Assembly (NCBI GenBank): GCA_964016885.1
Contig: OZ024742.1
Span: 363,506,001-363,570,000, forward strand
Origin: Eledone cirrhosa
Lineage: Eukaryota
Length of the DNA stretch: 64,000 nt
Direction of reading: 5' to 3'
Shown: positions 13,710-62,281 of the stretch, in pieces
Layout of the letters: each line of letters starts with the position of its first letter
Position numbering within the stretch: the stretch's first letter is position 1
Notes under the pieces: generated by a model
Seen by the model: the letters and a program-made list of their open reading frames with translations, nothing else
Databases searched by the model: none
What the model was told of the DNA's origin: nothing
Translations under genes and position numbers: made by a program

Positions 13710-13925
13710 TATATTAAAATAACAGATTCAAGTTCAAGCAAAGAATCGCAGCTTTCATCTTAAAGGGGATCTTCAGAAGATCCCGTTAAGGGTGAAAGCA
13801 ACGATTCTTTGCTTAAACTTTAATCTGTTATTTTAATAAATACTTGCTCTATGGTTGTTATATATTTGGTATATATTTATGCTTATCGAGCCCTCTTTGG
13901 ATTTTAGTGTTCACATTTATCGCTC
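13710..13925. mobile_element. Fold-back PLE terminus (family D): palindrome centred on 13775 plus one-sided tail
   Basis: 13710-13774 is inverted at 13776-13838 around a 1-nt spacer (gggatcttc-a-gaagatccc). The same family occurs at 14948, 15811 and 24160. Confidence 0.8.
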
Positions 13926-13944
13926 GTATACAGGAAACTAACTG

Positions 13945-14045
13945 GCCAGTCTGCTGATATGCAAATCTGGCTGATCAGTGGATCTGCTAATATGCAGACC
14001 TGGCTTATCATCTAGTCTTCTAATATGCAAATCAGGCCGATCAGT
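13945..14045. repeat. Degenerate 36-bp tandem repeat (about 3 units)
   Basis: ctgctgatatgcaaatctggctgatca / ctgctaatatgcagacctggcttatca / cttctaatatgcaaatcaggccgatca. Confidence 0.6.
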
Positions 14046-14619
14046 CACTGTGTATTTTTGAAAATAGCATATATTGTCACTAACTCTGACAGTTTGGCAG
14101 GTGAACAGTGAGCTGTACTGATGAAGGGTGATACCCAGAAACATTAGTGTCTGCAGTTCTGTTTACATGCCAACATAAGAGCAAGAATGAAGTGTTCATT
14201 CTACTGACATGGCTATAACATTGAGGCTTGTTTGCATAATTGCAAACGAATCCAGTGTTATTATTAATATTCTAAAAACTCAGATTACGTTTATATATGT
14301 ATATATATATATTCGCTCGCATTACCTCAACATGATAATACATGACCAGCGGCATATCTGTATAGTTGCATAACTACACCTCATAATTGTATGAACAGCT
14401 GATGATGTCACACGGAGACTGTCAATGGTATAACCATGGATTTGACATATATAATATGCAATAAAACATTTATGTAAAAGTAAGCATGTCTTAACAATAT
14501 TTCACACCTAATCACTACTGACGTAAAGTGCTTTTCGATTGCTTAAAACAGTTTATTCTGGTGGCGTCATAACTTCACCTCCACCGATAAAGATCCTTTT
14601 CTCCAAGACAAAGGTTAAT

Positions 14620-14758
14620 AGAGATTGGTACCTGTGACTTTGCAACTCGTTTCTATAGAATTGGAGCAACGCAATGCTTGGTCCGAGAATCGAACTCAAA
14701 ACCTCATGACCTCATGATCGTTAGCCCGACGATCTAACCACTAAGCCATGCGCTTTCA
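14620..14758 (-). mobile_element. Decayed tRNA-headed SINE (second family)
   Basis: The minus strand has an A box (tggcttagtgg) and a B box (gagttcgattc) but no complete cloverleaf. Confidence 0.55.
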
Positions 14759-14947
14759 CTATATATATATATATATATATATATATATATATATAATAGA
14801 GAGAGAGAGAGAGAGAGAGAGAGAGAATGAGAGAGAGAAATAGAGAGAGAGACGGTGAGAGGGAGAGGGAGATAGATACATAGGTAGATACACACACACA
14901 CGCACACATAATATACATATATCTATCTATATATATATATATATATA

Positions 14948-15352
14948 GTAATAATAATAAATTTGAAGACTAAAATCCAAAGAAGGCTCGATAAGGATAA
15001 ATATATATCAAATATATAAGAACCGTAGAGCAAATATTTATCAAAATAACAGATTAAAGTTTAAGCAAAGAATCGCTGCTTTCAACCTTAACGGGATCTT
15101 CTGAAACTAACACAGTCAATCTGTGAACGCAGAAGTGAATATTTCAAAAAACGTTGCAACCGGAGGAAGACAGGAAGACAATACTTTGGTTCGTAGAAAC
15201 ATTCCCTGACAGAGAACGGGAGTTACAGCATTATGTAGCAGTTGATGGTAACTACTGCGCTCCTCACAGATTGACTTTGTTAGTTTGAGAAGATCCCGTT
15301 AAGGGTGAAAGCAGCGATTCTTTGCTTAAACTTTAATCTGTTATTTTAATAA
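14948..15352. mobile_element. Family D PLE terminus with inverted partial copy
   Basis: 15040-15126 is inverted at 15265-15350. Homologous to 24160-24430. Confidence 0.8.
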
Positions 15353-15366
15353 AAAAAATATATATA

Positions 15367-58467: not shown

Positions 58468-58721
58468 ATGTATATATGTATGCATGTATATATATATATA
58501 TATATATATATATATATATATATATATATATATATATATATATATATATATATATATATATATATATATATACATACATACATATATACATACACCGATC
58601 TCAAGCCGTATGTATATATGTATGTATGTATATATATATATATATATATATATATATATATATATATATATATATATATATATATATATATATATATATA
58701 TATATATATATATATATATAT

Positions 58722-59400
58722 ATAGAGGCATTAAGTTAGTTGACCAAGTTATGAAGGTCACAGAAAGAGTTATAGCACAACTAATCAGAGACGAATTGAT
58801 CTAGATGAAATGCAGTTTGGGTTTGTGGCAGGTAAAAGTACCACAGATGCTCTTTTCTTTATACTGCAATTACAGGAGAAGTACCTAGCTAAAAGTAAAC
58901 CCCTCTACTTAGCTTTTGTTGACTTGGAGAAAACCTTTGACAGAGTCCCCTGCTCCATTATCTGGTGGGCCTTTAGAAAACTAGGAGTAGATGAATGGCT
59001 TGTGAGAGCTATACAAGCCATGTATAGAGGAACAGTCACCAAGGTTAGAATTAACAATGAATGTAGCAAAGAATTTAGCGTAATGGTATGGGTTCACAGG
59101 GCTGTGTCCTTAGCCCCCTCCTGTTTATTATTGCTCTACAGGCTATAACAGATGAGTTTAAGACTGGCTGCCCATGGGAACTCCCATATGCAGATGATCT
59201 AACTCTCATAGCTGAATCTATGGCTGAACTAGAGAAGTTGCAAACATGGAAGCATGGCCTAGAGTTAACTTGTCTAAGACTAAAGTTCTAGTATGTAGGA
59301 AGGAAAATAGGGCACAGGTCCCCTCTGGGAAATGGCCATGCTCAGTATATAAGAAAGGAGTAGGTAGAAATGCTATTCTATGCCCCAAATGCAAACATAC
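58722..59400 (+). mobile_element. RTE-like LINE RT fragment (different family)
   Basis: RGIKL, QFGF, AFVDLEKTFDRVP, QGCVLSPLLF, YADDL and KWPCSV..KGVG. Confidence 0.85.
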
Positions 59401-60174
59401 TCTGTTCCCCCCTTTCTCTATGTATGTATATATTCATACATCATATAGTTATATAGGATTTAGATATATGTGTCAAACTTAACACACCTCCAGCGATCTA
59501 ATCTGACGCATTTTTACAGGTAATCCCAACGACCTAATCCACTCTGTATATACACATATATATTTATACGTACACACACATATACATACATATATATATA
59601 CATACGTACAAACACCACATACACACACACATATATAATATATATACATGTATATATATATATATATATATATATATATATATATATATATATATATATA
59701 TATATATATATATATATATATATATATATATATATATACATGTATATATATACATGTATATATATATATACATATATATATATATATATATATATATATT
59801 TATATATATATATATATGTGTGTGTGTCTGCGTGTATACATATATGAATATATATGAGTATATATATGTGTATTTATCAATAAAAACTGCTGAATATGCG
59901 TGTCTGTTACACATTGATTTATGCATTATTTATGTAGAATCACACGCAATCACGAACACATACAGATACATATCTATTTTCAAACCCGTTCATACAAACA
60001 CACATATGCCTATATATATATATATATATTGTTATTATTTTTAAAGAATATATATACTTTTTAAAGAATTCCCTTTTCTTTAAACCCATCAAACAATGAC
60101 CTCCACCCATCCCAATCACCACCCTCTCCTACAACCAGAAAAGATATAAACACCACCATATTACTTGGACAGTC

Positions 60175-60225
60175 AGCTTCCTGGTGATTTCTCCCGAATG
60201 AAACAGTTCTAGTCCTGTAGAAGCT
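60175..60225 (+). ncRNA. Type I hammerhead motif with full helix III and A6G core change
   Basis: agcttc-CTGGTGA-t-ttc-tccc-gaa-t-GAAA-cag-ttctagtc-ctg-TA-gaagct. Confidence 0.65.
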
Positions 60226-60950
60226 TCTCTCTATTAAATATTTATACTCTGCTTTGTATTGAGTACGTTACTTACTGTGGTTACCCCCGATTGAACCCGG
60301 GATAAACTTATATATATATATACATACATGATATATTGGATTACCCAACGTGTCTATTTAGTAAATAAATTGAGAAAACATTCAATACATGTATAATAAA
60401 AGAGAAACGTTTCATTTGACTTTTGGTTCATATGAGATGTCATAAGGCATTTTAGATATAAAAGGTGAGCTTTCAGACCTCGTGTGTAGATATACGATAT
60501 ACACCATATATATATATACATATATATATATACATATATACATATATATCACGATAGATTAACGGAGCCATAGACTCTCGCCATTCCCTGTAAATAATGT
60601 GCTCAAAGGAGAGGAAATCCTGAGCTCTTTAAAATACAATATGTTGAAAAGGTAACACACTAGAGAGAGATACAGTGCGCTATCAATAAAACAGGGAAAA
60701 ACCACCAGTGTATGGATTCTCTCTCCCTCTCTCTCTCTCTCTCTCTCTATATATATATATATATACATATATATATATATATATATATATATATATATAT
60801 ATATATATATATATATATATATATATATATATATATATATATACATAAATACATATATATTGTTGTTACATCGGTGTTACAAAAGAAAAGGGAATCAGTG
60901 CTCAATCGGGAGCAGAGCTAATAAATTATTTATGTTCATACACGGAACAG

Positions 60951-61039
60951 AAGATATACCTGAGGTTTCAACGGACAATATTGACCATATATCTAAAATA
61001 TAATAGGGACCAAATTTGTGACGTATTCTTCAGACACTT
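60951..61039 (-). ncRNA. Hammerhead-like motif with extended helix II of about 57 nt
   Basis: CTGAAGA-atacgtcacaaatttggtc...ggtcaatattgtccgtt-GAAA-cctcagg-TA. Helix I is poorly paired. Confidence 0.45.
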
Positions 61040-61764
61040 ATGTGAGATTACACGCACACTCACACACACACACACACACACACACATATATATATATATA
61101 TATATATACACACACAGATACACCCACACTAACACACACATACACACCCATACAGCCACACTCACACACACACATACACACACACCGACACTCACACACA
61201 CATACACACACCCACACCCACACTCACTCCACCACACACACACATATATATATATATATTATTTTTCTAAATGTTTGTGCGTGTGAGAATATGTATATCT
61301 CTATCTATATATATGTATTTATATATATATATTATTAAAGTTAGTCCTTCATCAGTGATCTTCCAACCATCATTGGTATATATATATATTTATATATATA
61401 TATATATAGATATATCTATACATATATATATATATATATATATATATATATATATATATATATATATATATATATATATATATATATATATATATATATA
61501 TATATATATATATATAAATATAAAGAAAAAAAGATGAAATCGAAAATGCAACTGGAGTCTTATTTTTTTTTTAAATATATATATTTATTTGGTTCCTTTA
61601 CCGGTTTCGCAGTTCTTCTGCTTTTCAAAAGTAGAGTTGAGATGGAGGGTCTGTGGTTTTTCTCACATCTGTATATATATATATATATAAATATATATAT
61701 ATATATATATATATATATATATATATATATATATATATATATATATATATATATATATAGATAG

Positions 61765-62281
61765 ATAAATCTACCAAAATGTACGGTAGTGTCCAATCCG
61801 TATAAAGAACTCAATGTAATCCGAATATCATGAAAAGAGATGTATTCAAAAAATTTTTTTCAGATGAAAAATACAGGAAAACAGAGTCAAGATAAATTAA
61901 TAAAAATAATGAATAAAAACAAAGAAACAGTTCCTTATATTAAAAAATTCATCATTTTACGATCGTTTCTAGGATATATATGTTTGTGTTGGTATGTATA
62001 TCATATAGATCTATGTAAAATGTTTACAAACTATCAGAGGGAATATACATACCTACACATATATATGCTGTCTTCAGAAATAATGAAGACATTATTTCTG
62101 AAGACAGCATATATATGTGTAGGTATGTATATTCCCTCTGATAGTTTGTAAACATTTTACATAGATCTATATGATATACATACCAACACAAACATATATA
62201 TCCTAGAAACGATCGTAAAATGATGAATTTTTTAATATAAGGAACTGTTTCTTTGTGTTTATTCATTACTTTTATTAATTT
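61765..62281. mobile_element. Fold-back cassette (arms about 61895-62085 and 62090-62281, 4-nt loop) with long-helix-II HHRs on both strands
   Basis: Near-perfect palindrome with a tail at 61765-61894. Related pieces lie at 62360-62700 and 23204-23285. Confidence 0.85.
62090..62225 (+). ncRNA. Type I hammerhead ribozyme with about 100-nt helix II
   Basis: cattattt-CTGAAGA-[62105-62205 hairpin atatatatgtgtaggtatgtatat...atatacataccaacacaaacatatatat]-GAAA-cgatcg-TA-aaatgatg. Confidence 0.7.

What the first reader, a model, noticed from the sequence alone, without database searches (positions are those of the whole stretch)
13710..62281. Recurrent fold-back cassette: (TA)n, tail, arm, inverted arm, (TA)n, with ribozymes in both polarities
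Seen: unrelated families share one layout of two inverted arms with their 3' ends facing outward, and only one arm carries an extra tail of about 55-130 nt. Examples: 13710 (1-nt spacer), 15367, 16664 (1 nt), 17040 (0 nt), 17271, 23654, 49305, 54908, 61765 (4 nt) and the older 8380. The turn point is often just 5' of the HHR or inside it. Established: PLE insertions often have an inverted 5' pLTR and a 3' tail. Inference: the 0-4 nt spacers imply snap-back or template-switch synthesis, leaving ORF-less hairpin mini-elements of 200-500 bp. These could be one-off truncation products or a self-propagating non-autonomous class.
Basis: partly seen in the sequence, partly recalled or inferred. Interest (0 to 1): 0.75.

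Follow-up and report, generated by a model that had tools for sequence, protein, structure and literature searches.

The report
Twin-primed Penelope hairpins, made afresh
These lopsided mirror-image inserts are real, very abundant stubs of Penelope-type jumping genes rather than a self-copying hairpin family, and each was likely made afresh when both cut ends of the chromosome copied the same source RNA from two fixed start points and the two copies were joined head to head, which offers a testable answer to how these elements get their inverted ends.

Summary
The layout is real: all 10 named cassettes, plus two missed ones, are head-to-head arms of Penelope-like elements (PLEs) in (TA)n, tailed on one side. 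Only 4 of 10 have 0-4 nt spacers and three are 1-3 kb. The anatomy is published. Genome-wide, families A, C and H have at least 1,638, 1,939 and 223 tight fold-backs. Identical junctions recur, but not as a clade: one 11-variant haplotype carries four junctions, and one junction sits on four haplotypes. Snap-back fails: the loop faces either way (51:40), and in 9 of 14 pairs the tailed piece holds little or none of the arm it should have copied. Both arms share haplotypes (43 of 45). Inner ends pile up just 5' of the hammerhead, with an extra cap-like G in family A. Best reading: two cDNAs primed from both target ends at two fixed sites of one source RNA, run off at the transcript start and end-joined. 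Four A-to-G-hyperedited copies (against 34,262 unedited) suggest that hairpin RNA is rarely re-mobilised. The scan found twin priming, start-site run-off and ADAR scars before on other DNA, including elsewhere in this genome.

The parts
8366..9412 (-). Family K ('8380') tailed arm; tail 8366-8454; no hammerhead passing the descriptor
9561..10567 (+). Family K tail-less arm, 94% identical to partner; second small hairpin 9383-9472 at the junction
13708..13774 (-). Family A tail-less arm, abuts (TA)n 13656-13714; older, diverged copy
13775..13775 (.). 1-nt centre of TTC-A-GAA junction; same junction type at 368 or more loci, facing either way
13776..13920 (+). Family A tailed arm (arm to 13842, tail 13843-13920), starts inside the hammerhead core; tail end overrun by another repeat
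14948..15221 (-).
15251..15357 (+). Family A tail-less arm of the missed cassette (about 114 nt spacer)
15368..15612 (-). Family B tailed arm; tail 15368-15451
15628..15797 (+). Family B tail-less arm with hammerhead (core at 15697); 15 nt spacer
16664..16799 (-). Family C tail-less arm
16801..17014 (+). Family C tailed arm starting at the family hot spot CAGATG; family hammerhead has a U3-A8 core
17040..17171 (-). Family D tailed arm, short; turn at a TATA palindrome downstream of the ribozyme
17172..17205 (+). Family D tail-less arm, 34 nt, 0-nt spacer
17273..17376 (-). Family E tail-less arm (paired part)
18064..18263 (+). Family E tailed arm with hammerhead (core at 18067); 687 nt spacer before it
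23655..23939 (-). Family D tailed arm; tail 23655-23713; includes the 31-nt spacer
23940..24134 (+). Family D tail-less arm beginning at the hammerhead core
24161..25478 (-). Long family A copy: coding-region end, 3' UTR, intact hammerhead, tail; reference for family A numbering
49308..49447 (-). Family F tailed arm
49454..49515 (+). Family F tail-less arm; turn lies in hammerhead helix III, with extra junction bases
54909..56792 (-). Family G tailed arm, 1.9 kb, with RT motifs and C-terminal endonuclease of Hydra type, broken by stops and frameshifts
56793..57990 (+). Family G tail-less arm, 1.2 kb, 96% identical to partner
61516..61671 (-). Solo family C tail-less copy whose inner end is the same CAGATG hot spot, joined to (TA)n
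61760..62085 (-). Family H tailed arm; tail 61760-61893
62090..62281 (+). Family H tail-less arm, 99% identical, 4-nt spacer at the 5' edge of helix I; hammerhead with a 101-nt helix II region
62360..62601 (.). Second family H cassette (missed): tailed arm 62360-62545, tail-less arm 62552-62601, turn at AATT downstream of the ribozyme

Best explanation
The cassettes are individual insertions of endonuclease-bearing Penelope-like retrotransposons into (TA)n, each likely made afresh when both cut target ends primed reverse transcription of the same source RNA at two fixed internal sites and the two cDNAs were end-joined head to head. Shown: two fixed outer ends per family, one of each per cassette; both arms from one source haplotype; junctions unlinked to haplotype; either arm may reach further in; inner ends cluster just 5' of the hammerhead. 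Inferred: the downstream start gives the tailed arm and the upstream start the tail-less arm (as for the two in vitro start sites of PAc); the cluster is the capped transcript start, so the 200-500 bp minis are complete run-off copies of an RNA whose start sites lie only about 75-335 nt from its 5' end; the two 3' cDNA ends, identical in sequence, can pair only at micro-palindromes, which makes the same junctions recur and leaves 0-4 nt spacers and templated inserts typical of microhomology-mediated end joining. Whether one RNA molecule or two transcripts of one source element serve both ends is not resolved. Rarely, a read-through hairpin RNA is likely ADAR-edited and copied again as a unit.
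For: Fixed ends: family C tail-less end at +151 in 41 of 48 loci, tail end +230-249 in 45 of 48; family H 183-195 in 46 of 50 and 312 or more in 49 of 50. Asymmetry: A 157 of 160 short+tail, 3 no tail, 0 tail+tail (part of this set was found with a tail-requiring pattern); H 48 short+tail, 1 partial, 1 no tail of 50; C 1 clear tail+tail of 48. Same source: C subfamily marker concordant in 43 of 45 scorable loci (3 unscorable; p 8e-10); H markers e.g. A98T 17 both/0 one, T30A 15/0, G132A 13/0. Made afresh: 34 junction strings in 50 A loci; H haplotype of 11 variants with 4 junctions (L351, L355, L357, L393) and one junction on 4 haplotypes (L354, L372, L386, L396). Polarity: A 1-nt centre 51 T:40 A (p 0.29); H 15:15 with 20 ties; C 15:9 with 7 ties, 17 loci skipped. 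Independent priming: of 42 tail-less A arms, 14 abut an inverted tailed piece; 6 of these share no sequence with the arm and 3 share 12 nt or less. Hot spot: 20 of 70 unselected A arms start at 431-450 (1.0 per nt) against 22 in 201-400 (0.11 per nt). Extra base: after A440 the next cDNA base is an unexplained C in 21 arms, against 2 G and 2 T once 5 G that are the partner's C are removed, and 10 genomic A; after G437 C in 4 of 6. PAc cleaves and extends both strands, starts at two internal sites that bound the tail, is predicted dimeric, and needs no ribozyme cleavage (PMC11167929 main text read). Cap-derived extra G and MMEJ at twin-priming junctions are described for L1 (PMC11702581 passages). 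Penelope has an Inr start in the pLTR (PMC2377424 passages).
Against: No RNA data test the start site. Family C shows the sharp inner boundary but no extra-C signal (1 case); in H the signal is weaker (13 unexplained C against 14 G, 7 A, 5 T). The A variant G472C is in both arms in only about 12 of 89 scorable loci (counted by eye) and shows no linkage, which fits a recurrent mutation or copying error but would also fit two templates. Two of 45 C loci are discordant. Later inversion between arms could randomise loop polarity, and later deletion could remove part of an arm. The sample of 70 arms required positions 474-500 intact, so ends at the predicted cleavage site (486) could not be seen. 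In D. virilis an intron ends at the 5' edge of helix I (PMC4209133 passage), a rival cause of the hot spot. Target-site duplications cannot be read in (TA)n.
Confidence: 0.75

Rival explanations
1. Snap-back: one tail-primed cDNA folds back at its 3' end, copies itself, and is captured by the other (TA)n end (the first reader's inference; self-priming on an antisense template was proposed in PMC3846280).
For: Arms share haplotypes. Some junctions are feasible 3-4 nt loops, and short templated inserts show local snap-back synthesis at junctions. Published proposal (passage).
Against: Predicts the loop always in the tailed arm's sense; observed 51:40, 15:15 and 15:9. 0-1 nt loops are common and cannot form within one strand (established sterics). 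In 9 of 14 pairs the tailed piece lacks nearly all of the tail-less arm. Tail-less arms can reach 70-150 nt further in than the tailed arm (L010, L022). The tail-less end is fixed although longer TA tracts lie further along the tail.
Confidence: 0.08
2. The hairpins are a self-propagating non-autonomous class copied as units from master hairpins.
For: 368 loci share the 13710 junction. L343 and L345 carry A-to-G bursts on one strand through both arms, so hairpin RNA can be re-copied.
Against: Junction and haplotype are unlinked; the shared junction faces both ways; the same family turns at different points inside the window (A, D, H); L343 has no sibling among the 40 best of 1,928 candidates (next best 92%); edited copies are 4 against 34,262 unedited matches (the edited pattern is narrow, so 4 is a floor).
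Confidence: 0.05
3. Two cDNAs as in the best explanation, but the inner hot spot is a splice acceptor or a structure-induced stop at hammerhead helix I, not the capped start.
For: In A and H the hot spot is exactly the 5' edge of helix I; A has a pyrimidine tract and AG there; the D. virilis intron ends at helix I; C lacks the extra C.
Against: Extra G appears at two neighbouring positions (440 and 437); no constant upstream exon is seen in junctions or solo copies; in C the hot spot is about 55 nt 5' of the core; the A and H sites read like Inr motifs (TTAGTT, TCATTA; consensus recalled).
Confidence: 0.1
4. Fold-back chimeras of sequencing or assembly.
For: Palindromes are a known source of such artefacts; no single read spanning a window cassette was inspected.
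Against: Arms carry independent substitutions, flanks are unique on both sides, only one arm has a tail, junctions are diverse with inserts. Illumina reads of other samples show both family A outer ends joined to (TA)n (2,464 and 590 reads in X21), and depth arithmetic implies several hundred reads per run cross a family A centre (pooled over copies, and library chimeras could add some).
Confidence: 0.01

Closest known systems
EN+ PLE insertion unit with adjacent inverted 5'-truncated copy and one-sided tail (PMC8557442 Fig. 2 legend and passages; PMC3846280 passages; PMC2377424 Fig. 1C legend)
   Same: Same anatomy: inverted 5' copy, tail at one end only, hammerhead in the pLTR, (TA)n targets.
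   Different: Tails are 59-141 nt rather than 30-40; many units are so short that only pLTR ends remain; those papers leave the mechanism undefined or propose antisense self-priming.
PAc (Poseidon, Anolis) in vitro TPRT (PMC11167929, main text read, part of Methods and supplements not read)
   Same: Two internal RT start sites bounding the tail; both strands cleaved and extended; predicted dimer; AT-rich target; ribozyme cleavage not needed.
   Different: It found no difference of start site between strands and did not derive the inverted repeat; genomic copies here pair one start with each end almost without exception.
L1 twin priming and 5' inversion (PMC11702581 passages)
   Same: Both target ends primed on one RNA; junction closed by c-NHEJ or MMEJ; extra G from the cap in full-length copies.
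   Different: In L1 the second primer anneals by microhomology at a variable site beside the end of the first cDNA, so the two pieces barely overlap. Here both starts are fixed and close together, so the two cDNAs overlap and give an inverted repeat.
Hydra clade of C-terminal EN+ PLEs (PMC8557442 section 11 read)
   Same: Families A, G, H: CxCx5C linker, no CCHH cysteines in the GIY-YIG core, hammerheads, (TA)n targets.
   Different: Family D has a CX4CxxC linker and cysteines in the core (Neptune-like); B, C, E, F, K coding regions were not examined; no phylogeny built.
Animal non-LTR retrozymes (bioRxiv 10.64898/2026.07.22.740005, abstract, introduction and start of methods read)
   Same: Non-coding, pLTR-derived, type I hammerhead.
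   Different: Retrozymes are head-to-tail tandem units thought to cycle through circular RNA; these are head-to-head, continue into coding PLE sequence in long copies, and are not copied as units.
ADAR-edited processed pseudogenes made by L1 in cultured cells (PMC11702581 passage, 3 of 235)
   Same: Clustered one-strand A-to-G confined to paired inverted repeats, fixed in DNA.
   Different: Here the edited template is the element's own hairpin and the copies sit in a reference genome.

Membership tests
EN+ Penelope-like element insertion | Upstream ORF with C-terminal GIY-YIG endonuclease in long copies | tested here: met
   D: Pfam GIY-YIG 24 bits, above cut-off. A, H, G: GIY-YIG-like motifs and tblastn cross-matches, though Pfam gave no hit for A or G. 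Not examined for B, C, E, F, K.
EN+ Penelope-like element insertion | PLE-type reverse transcriptase | tested here: inconclusive
   G frame 56229-56864 shows FD..LY, MGS and YRDD motifs; no Pfam RT hit; no phylogeny.
EN+ Penelope-like element insertion | Type I hammerhead in the pLTR | tested here: met
   8 of 9 families pass a descriptor, null 0-1%; K fails. Rfam gave no hammerhead among the 150 of 169 rows shown. Cleavage not assayed.
EN+ Penelope-like element insertion | Inverted 5'-truncated copy and one-sided tail | tested here: met
EN+ Penelope-like element insertion | Partial-tandem pLTR before an intact ORF | not tested
   No full-length source copy of any family was retrieved.
Hydra clade (families A, G, H) | CxCx5C linker and absence of CCHH in the endonuclease | tested here: met
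   H and G show CxCx5C; the translated A copy has one cysteine substituted; none has cysteines between GIY and YIG besides the motif itself.
Hydra clade (families A, G, H) | RWK and DKT motifs in RT; clade placement | not tested
   N-terminal RT not retrieved.
Self-propagating non-autonomous element (MITE- or SINE-like) | Copies share junction and private variants as a clade | tested here: not met
   Junction and haplotype unlinked; polarity mixed; no sibling of L343.
Non-LTR retrozyme | Head-to-tail tandem units each with a hammerhead | tested here: not met
   Units are head-to-head and continue into coding PLE sequence.
L1-type twin priming | Second primer site variable and adjacent to the first cDNA's end | tested here: not met
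   Second start fixed (41 of 48; 46 of 50). It works like twin priming but is not the L1 form.
ADAR-hyperedited retrocopy (L343-L346) | One-strand A-to-G burst in the paired region, 5'-neighbour bias against G | tested here: met
   A-to-G 16, 8, 8, 9 against other changes 1, 5, 1, 1 in the aligned arms; edited by 5' neighbour T 19/39, A 22/59, G 1/21, C 0/10; tails without A-to-G.
ADAR-hyperedited retrocopy (L343-L346) | Unedited parent locus identified | not tested
   Family A arms are too alike to assign a parent with the calls made.

The most novel reading that the evidence does not exclude
A PLE reverse transcriptase dimer copies one capped RNA molecule twice, from two fixed start sites, one for each end of the break; the tens of thousands of ORF-less hairpins are complete run-off products that record the transcript start; and hairpin transcripts occasionally go round again after ADAR editing, writing RNA edits into the germline.
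Probability: 0.45. Interest if true: 0.72.

Novelty: new variant of a known kind. Interest (0 to 1): 0.52.

Why it matters
PLEs are the closest retrotransposon relatives of telomerase, and the origin of their inverted ends and one-sided tail is described in print as undefined (PMC8557442). Counts from thousands of genomic copies discriminate the models without bench work: they reject snap-back and unit propagation, and point to double target priming with fixed starts. This gives direct predictions for the existing PAc in vitro system. Practically, such hairpins should be annotated as PLE ends, not as MITEs, retrozymes or microRNA precursors (they draw many sub-threshold miRNA matches in Rfam). 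The edited copies are a route from RNA editing to inherited DNA.

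Tried and rejected
Rfam scan: only sub-threshold miRNA-like hairpin matches among the rows shown; hammerheads were found with my own descriptor instead. G472C as a two-template marker: first looked tail-specific (5 of 5), then proved symmetric (13 short, 12 tail among discordant loci), unlinked and mostly discordant; set aside as uninformative once multi-site haplotypes in C and H showed concordance. 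The short/TAIL classes and the '551' ends are alignment artefacts of the TA tract; replaced by motif scoring. The T/A counts at the centre in raw reads are not a polarity test, because non-fold-back copies add A there. No RNA holder listed, so the start site was not tested on RNA. Pfam gave no RT hit; the protein atlas held no entry. An upstream exon as the source of the extra G: no constant sequence seen. Assembly chimera: rejected on arm divergence and asymmetry. Literature searches that found no paper deriving PLE inverted ends from two primed cDNAs, or ADAR scars in PLE copies: (listings only unless cited as read); subscription journals are not covered, and no supplements were read, so the PAc and Hydra supplements may bear on tail and start-site claims.

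Full report
1. Observation. Self-comparison of the window with (TA)n masked and arm-to-arm alignment confirm all ten sites as head-to-head inverted arms, 87-100% identical, with 59-134 nt of unpaired extra sequence on one side. They belong to nine unrelated families (A 13710, B 15367, C 16664, D 17040 and 23654, E 17271, F 49305, G 54908, H 61765, K 8380). Two more cassettes were missed (A 14948-15357; H 62360-62601). Spacers are 0-4 nt in four cases and 15-687 nt in six. Three cassettes are 1-3 kb, and G carries RT and endonuclease coding sequence. A type I hammerhead descriptor is met in 8 of 9 families (null 0-1%), including a CAGAAGA core in A, a U3-A8 core in C (a variant described in PMC4209133) and a 101-nt helix II region in H.

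2. What the families are. Long copies continue upstream into coding sequence. A, G and H end in a GIY-YIG-like domain with a CxCx5C linker and no CCHH cysteines, the Hydra signature (PMC8557442 section 11). D has a Pfam GIY-YIG hit and a Neptune-like linker. So the arms are 3' ends (pLTRs) of endonuclease-bearing PLEs. The layout itself is published: an inverted 5'-truncated copy next to the element and a tail at one end only (PMC8557442; PMC3846280), with the mechanism called undefined.

3. Genome-wide census. The window lies in G000 (3.0 Gb). Exact patterns find 34,262 family A arms, 1,638 A fold-backs with at most 30 nt between motifs, 1,939 for C and 223 for H; reversed controls give 0. 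Loci were taken in chromosome order from the listings, so they come mostly from contigs C1 and C2.

4. Outer ends are fixed and paired one of each. C: tail-less end at +151 in 41 of 48, tailed end at +230-249 in 45 of 48, one clear tail+tail case. H: 46 of 50 and 49 of 50; 48 short+tail, none tail+tail. A: 157 of 160 short+tail, 3 without tail, none tail+tail (part of the set required one tail). Raw Illumina reads from another sample show both A ends joined to (TA)n. This matches the two internal RT start sites that bound the PAc tail in vitro, where both target strands are cut and extended (PMC11167929).

5. Unit mobilisation. But 50 A loci hold 34 junction strings; in H one 11-variant haplotype carries four different junctions and one junction sits on four haplotypes; and three families turn at different points within the window. 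Recurrent junctions are hot spots at micro-palindromes (TTC.GAA, CATG, AATT, TATA), not descendants of a master.

6. Snap-back. A cDNA primed at the tail that folds on itself must leave the loop in the tailed arm's sense and can copy only what it contains. The A 1-nt centre is T in 51 and A in 40 (55:45 by eye in the overlapping listing), as expected if two identical 3' ends pair around a T-T mismatch. The further-reaching arm is tailed or tail-less 15:15 in H (20 ties) and 15:9 in C (7 ties, 17 skipped). In an unselected set of 70 A arms, 48 scored tail-less; 42 were examined (five ran past the locus edge, one was a misscored tail). Fourteen abut an inverted tailed piece; six of those pieces lie wholly within the tail and three overlap the arm by 12 nt or less. 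These cannot be self-copies. Later inversion or deletion could mimic single cases, but five of these nine tail-less arms still start at the hot spot (442-446). Short templated inserts at junctions show that local snap-back does occur during repair.

7. One source for both arms. The C subfamily marker is concordant in 43 of 45 scorable loci (46% discordance expected, p 8e-10), and C115T is shared in 14 of 14 carriers. H arms share up to 16 variants with few private changes. Against this, A variant G472C is in both arms in about 12 of 89 loci (by eye) and unlinked to other sites; I read it as mostly recurrent change, but it is unexplained. One RNA molecule versus two transcripts of one source is not resolved.

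8. Inner ends. Of 70 unselected A arms, 20 start at 431-450 (1.0 per nt), 12 at 451-474, 1 at 401-430, 22 at 201-400 (0.11 per nt), 7 further up, and 8 run past the locus edge (some loci give two arms). The peak is the 5' edge of helix I, about 45 nt before the predicted cut at 486, which this sample could not see. Arms reaching A440 are followed by an unexplained C in 21 cases, against genomic A in 10, G in 7 (5 are the partner's C) and T in 2; arms reaching G437 by C in 4 of 6. An extra G marks cap copying in L1 (PMC11702581), and Penelope starts at an Inr within the pLTR (PMC2377424). H shows 13 unexplained C at the matching site, with more noise; C shows the boundary but no extra C. I infer the capped start. 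Because the RT starts lie only about 75-335 nt downstream, full run-off gives ORF-less minis. A splice acceptor or structural stop remains a rival.

9. Second-round copies. L164 (=L343) has 16 A-to-G changes on one strand through both arms and one other change. A pattern asking for two such edits found four loci genome-wide, all hyperedited (A-to-G 16, 8, 8, 9), with ADAR-like neighbour bias and no A-to-G in the tails. L343 and L345 are edited across the junction, so a hairpin RNA was likely the template. L343 has no sibling among the 40 best candidates. No such burst was seen in the other A loci scored, in 50 H loci or in the seven window cassettes compared, though exact patterns select against edited copies. 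Unit re-mobilisation exists but is rare.

10. Artefact check. Independent arm substitutions, unique flanks, one-sided tails and varied junction inserts argue against chimeras. In three Illumina runs of other samples, depth and loose-end counts imply several hundred reads per run crossing a family A centre (pooled, inferred). No window locus was confirmed by a spanning read.

11. Earlier notes of the scan, consulted after my reading was written down, reach the same twin-priming, start-site and ADAR readings in other genomes and elsewhere in this one. They are unchecked and not counted as support. One gave a lead: an RCTC...GAGY motif in the tail, which I find in 6 of 9 window tails (A, B, F, G, H, K; not C, D, E, no null computed).

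12. Verdict. Known anatomy, new members of Hydra- and Neptune-like PLE families; not a self-propagating class and not snap-back. The value lies in genomic counts that support a double-priming variant of TPRT and make a long-open question testable. Novelty: new variant of a known kind. Interest 0.52.

Noticed in passing
L343-L346 (G000:C1:359989269, C4:86212298, C12:11493109, C24:18889516): Four A-to-G-hyperedited family A copies; positions 495-514 next to the tail-less end are unedited in the sense arm of all four, perhaps because edits there block copying.
   Followed up: partly
window 13914-14290: A further abundant repeat overruns the family A tail; it has 33-nt internal repeats and a canonical type I hammerhead at 14118.
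   Followed up: partly
window 11288-11467: A different kind of hairpin: 39-nt inverted duplication of the start of a 190-nt dispersed repeat around a (TA)n centre.
   Followed up: no
window 49571-53787: Long PLE-like element on the minus strand with direct repeats at 49593-49893 and 53493-53787 and a broken RT frame.
   Followed up: no
window 11696-12553: Open C-terminal RT-thumb plus GIY-YIG frame (Pfam 22 bits, just under cut-off) of another PLE family.
   Followed up: partly
window 27175-31195 and 41890-47586; 36037-41629: Two L1/Tx1-like elements, and duplicated elements with a C-terminal restriction-like endonuclease frame (labels recalled from the translations, not tested).
   Followed up: no
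family A positions 472, 523, 528, 552, 580: Unusually frequent C-to-G or G-to-C changes (6-12% of copies; position 523 about a third of raw reads), unlinked to each other; cause unexplained.
   Followed up: partly
window tails of A, B, F, G, H, K: RCTC...GAGY hairpin motif 1-23 nt into the tail (lead from earlier notes; 6 of 9 tails).
   Followed up: partly
window 17377-18063: The two family E arms have different upstream sequence next to helix I; the spacer holds a 140-nt direct duplication (17539-17681, 17761-17903).
   Followed up: no
window 8108-8329 and 31907-32200: Two further short inverted pairs (56 nt and 65 nt arms) not assigned to a family.
   Followed up: no
window 14760-18310 and 60748-62741: Cassettes are nested end to end in shared (TA)n tracts: each insertion leaves new (TA)n targets for the next family.
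   Followed up: no
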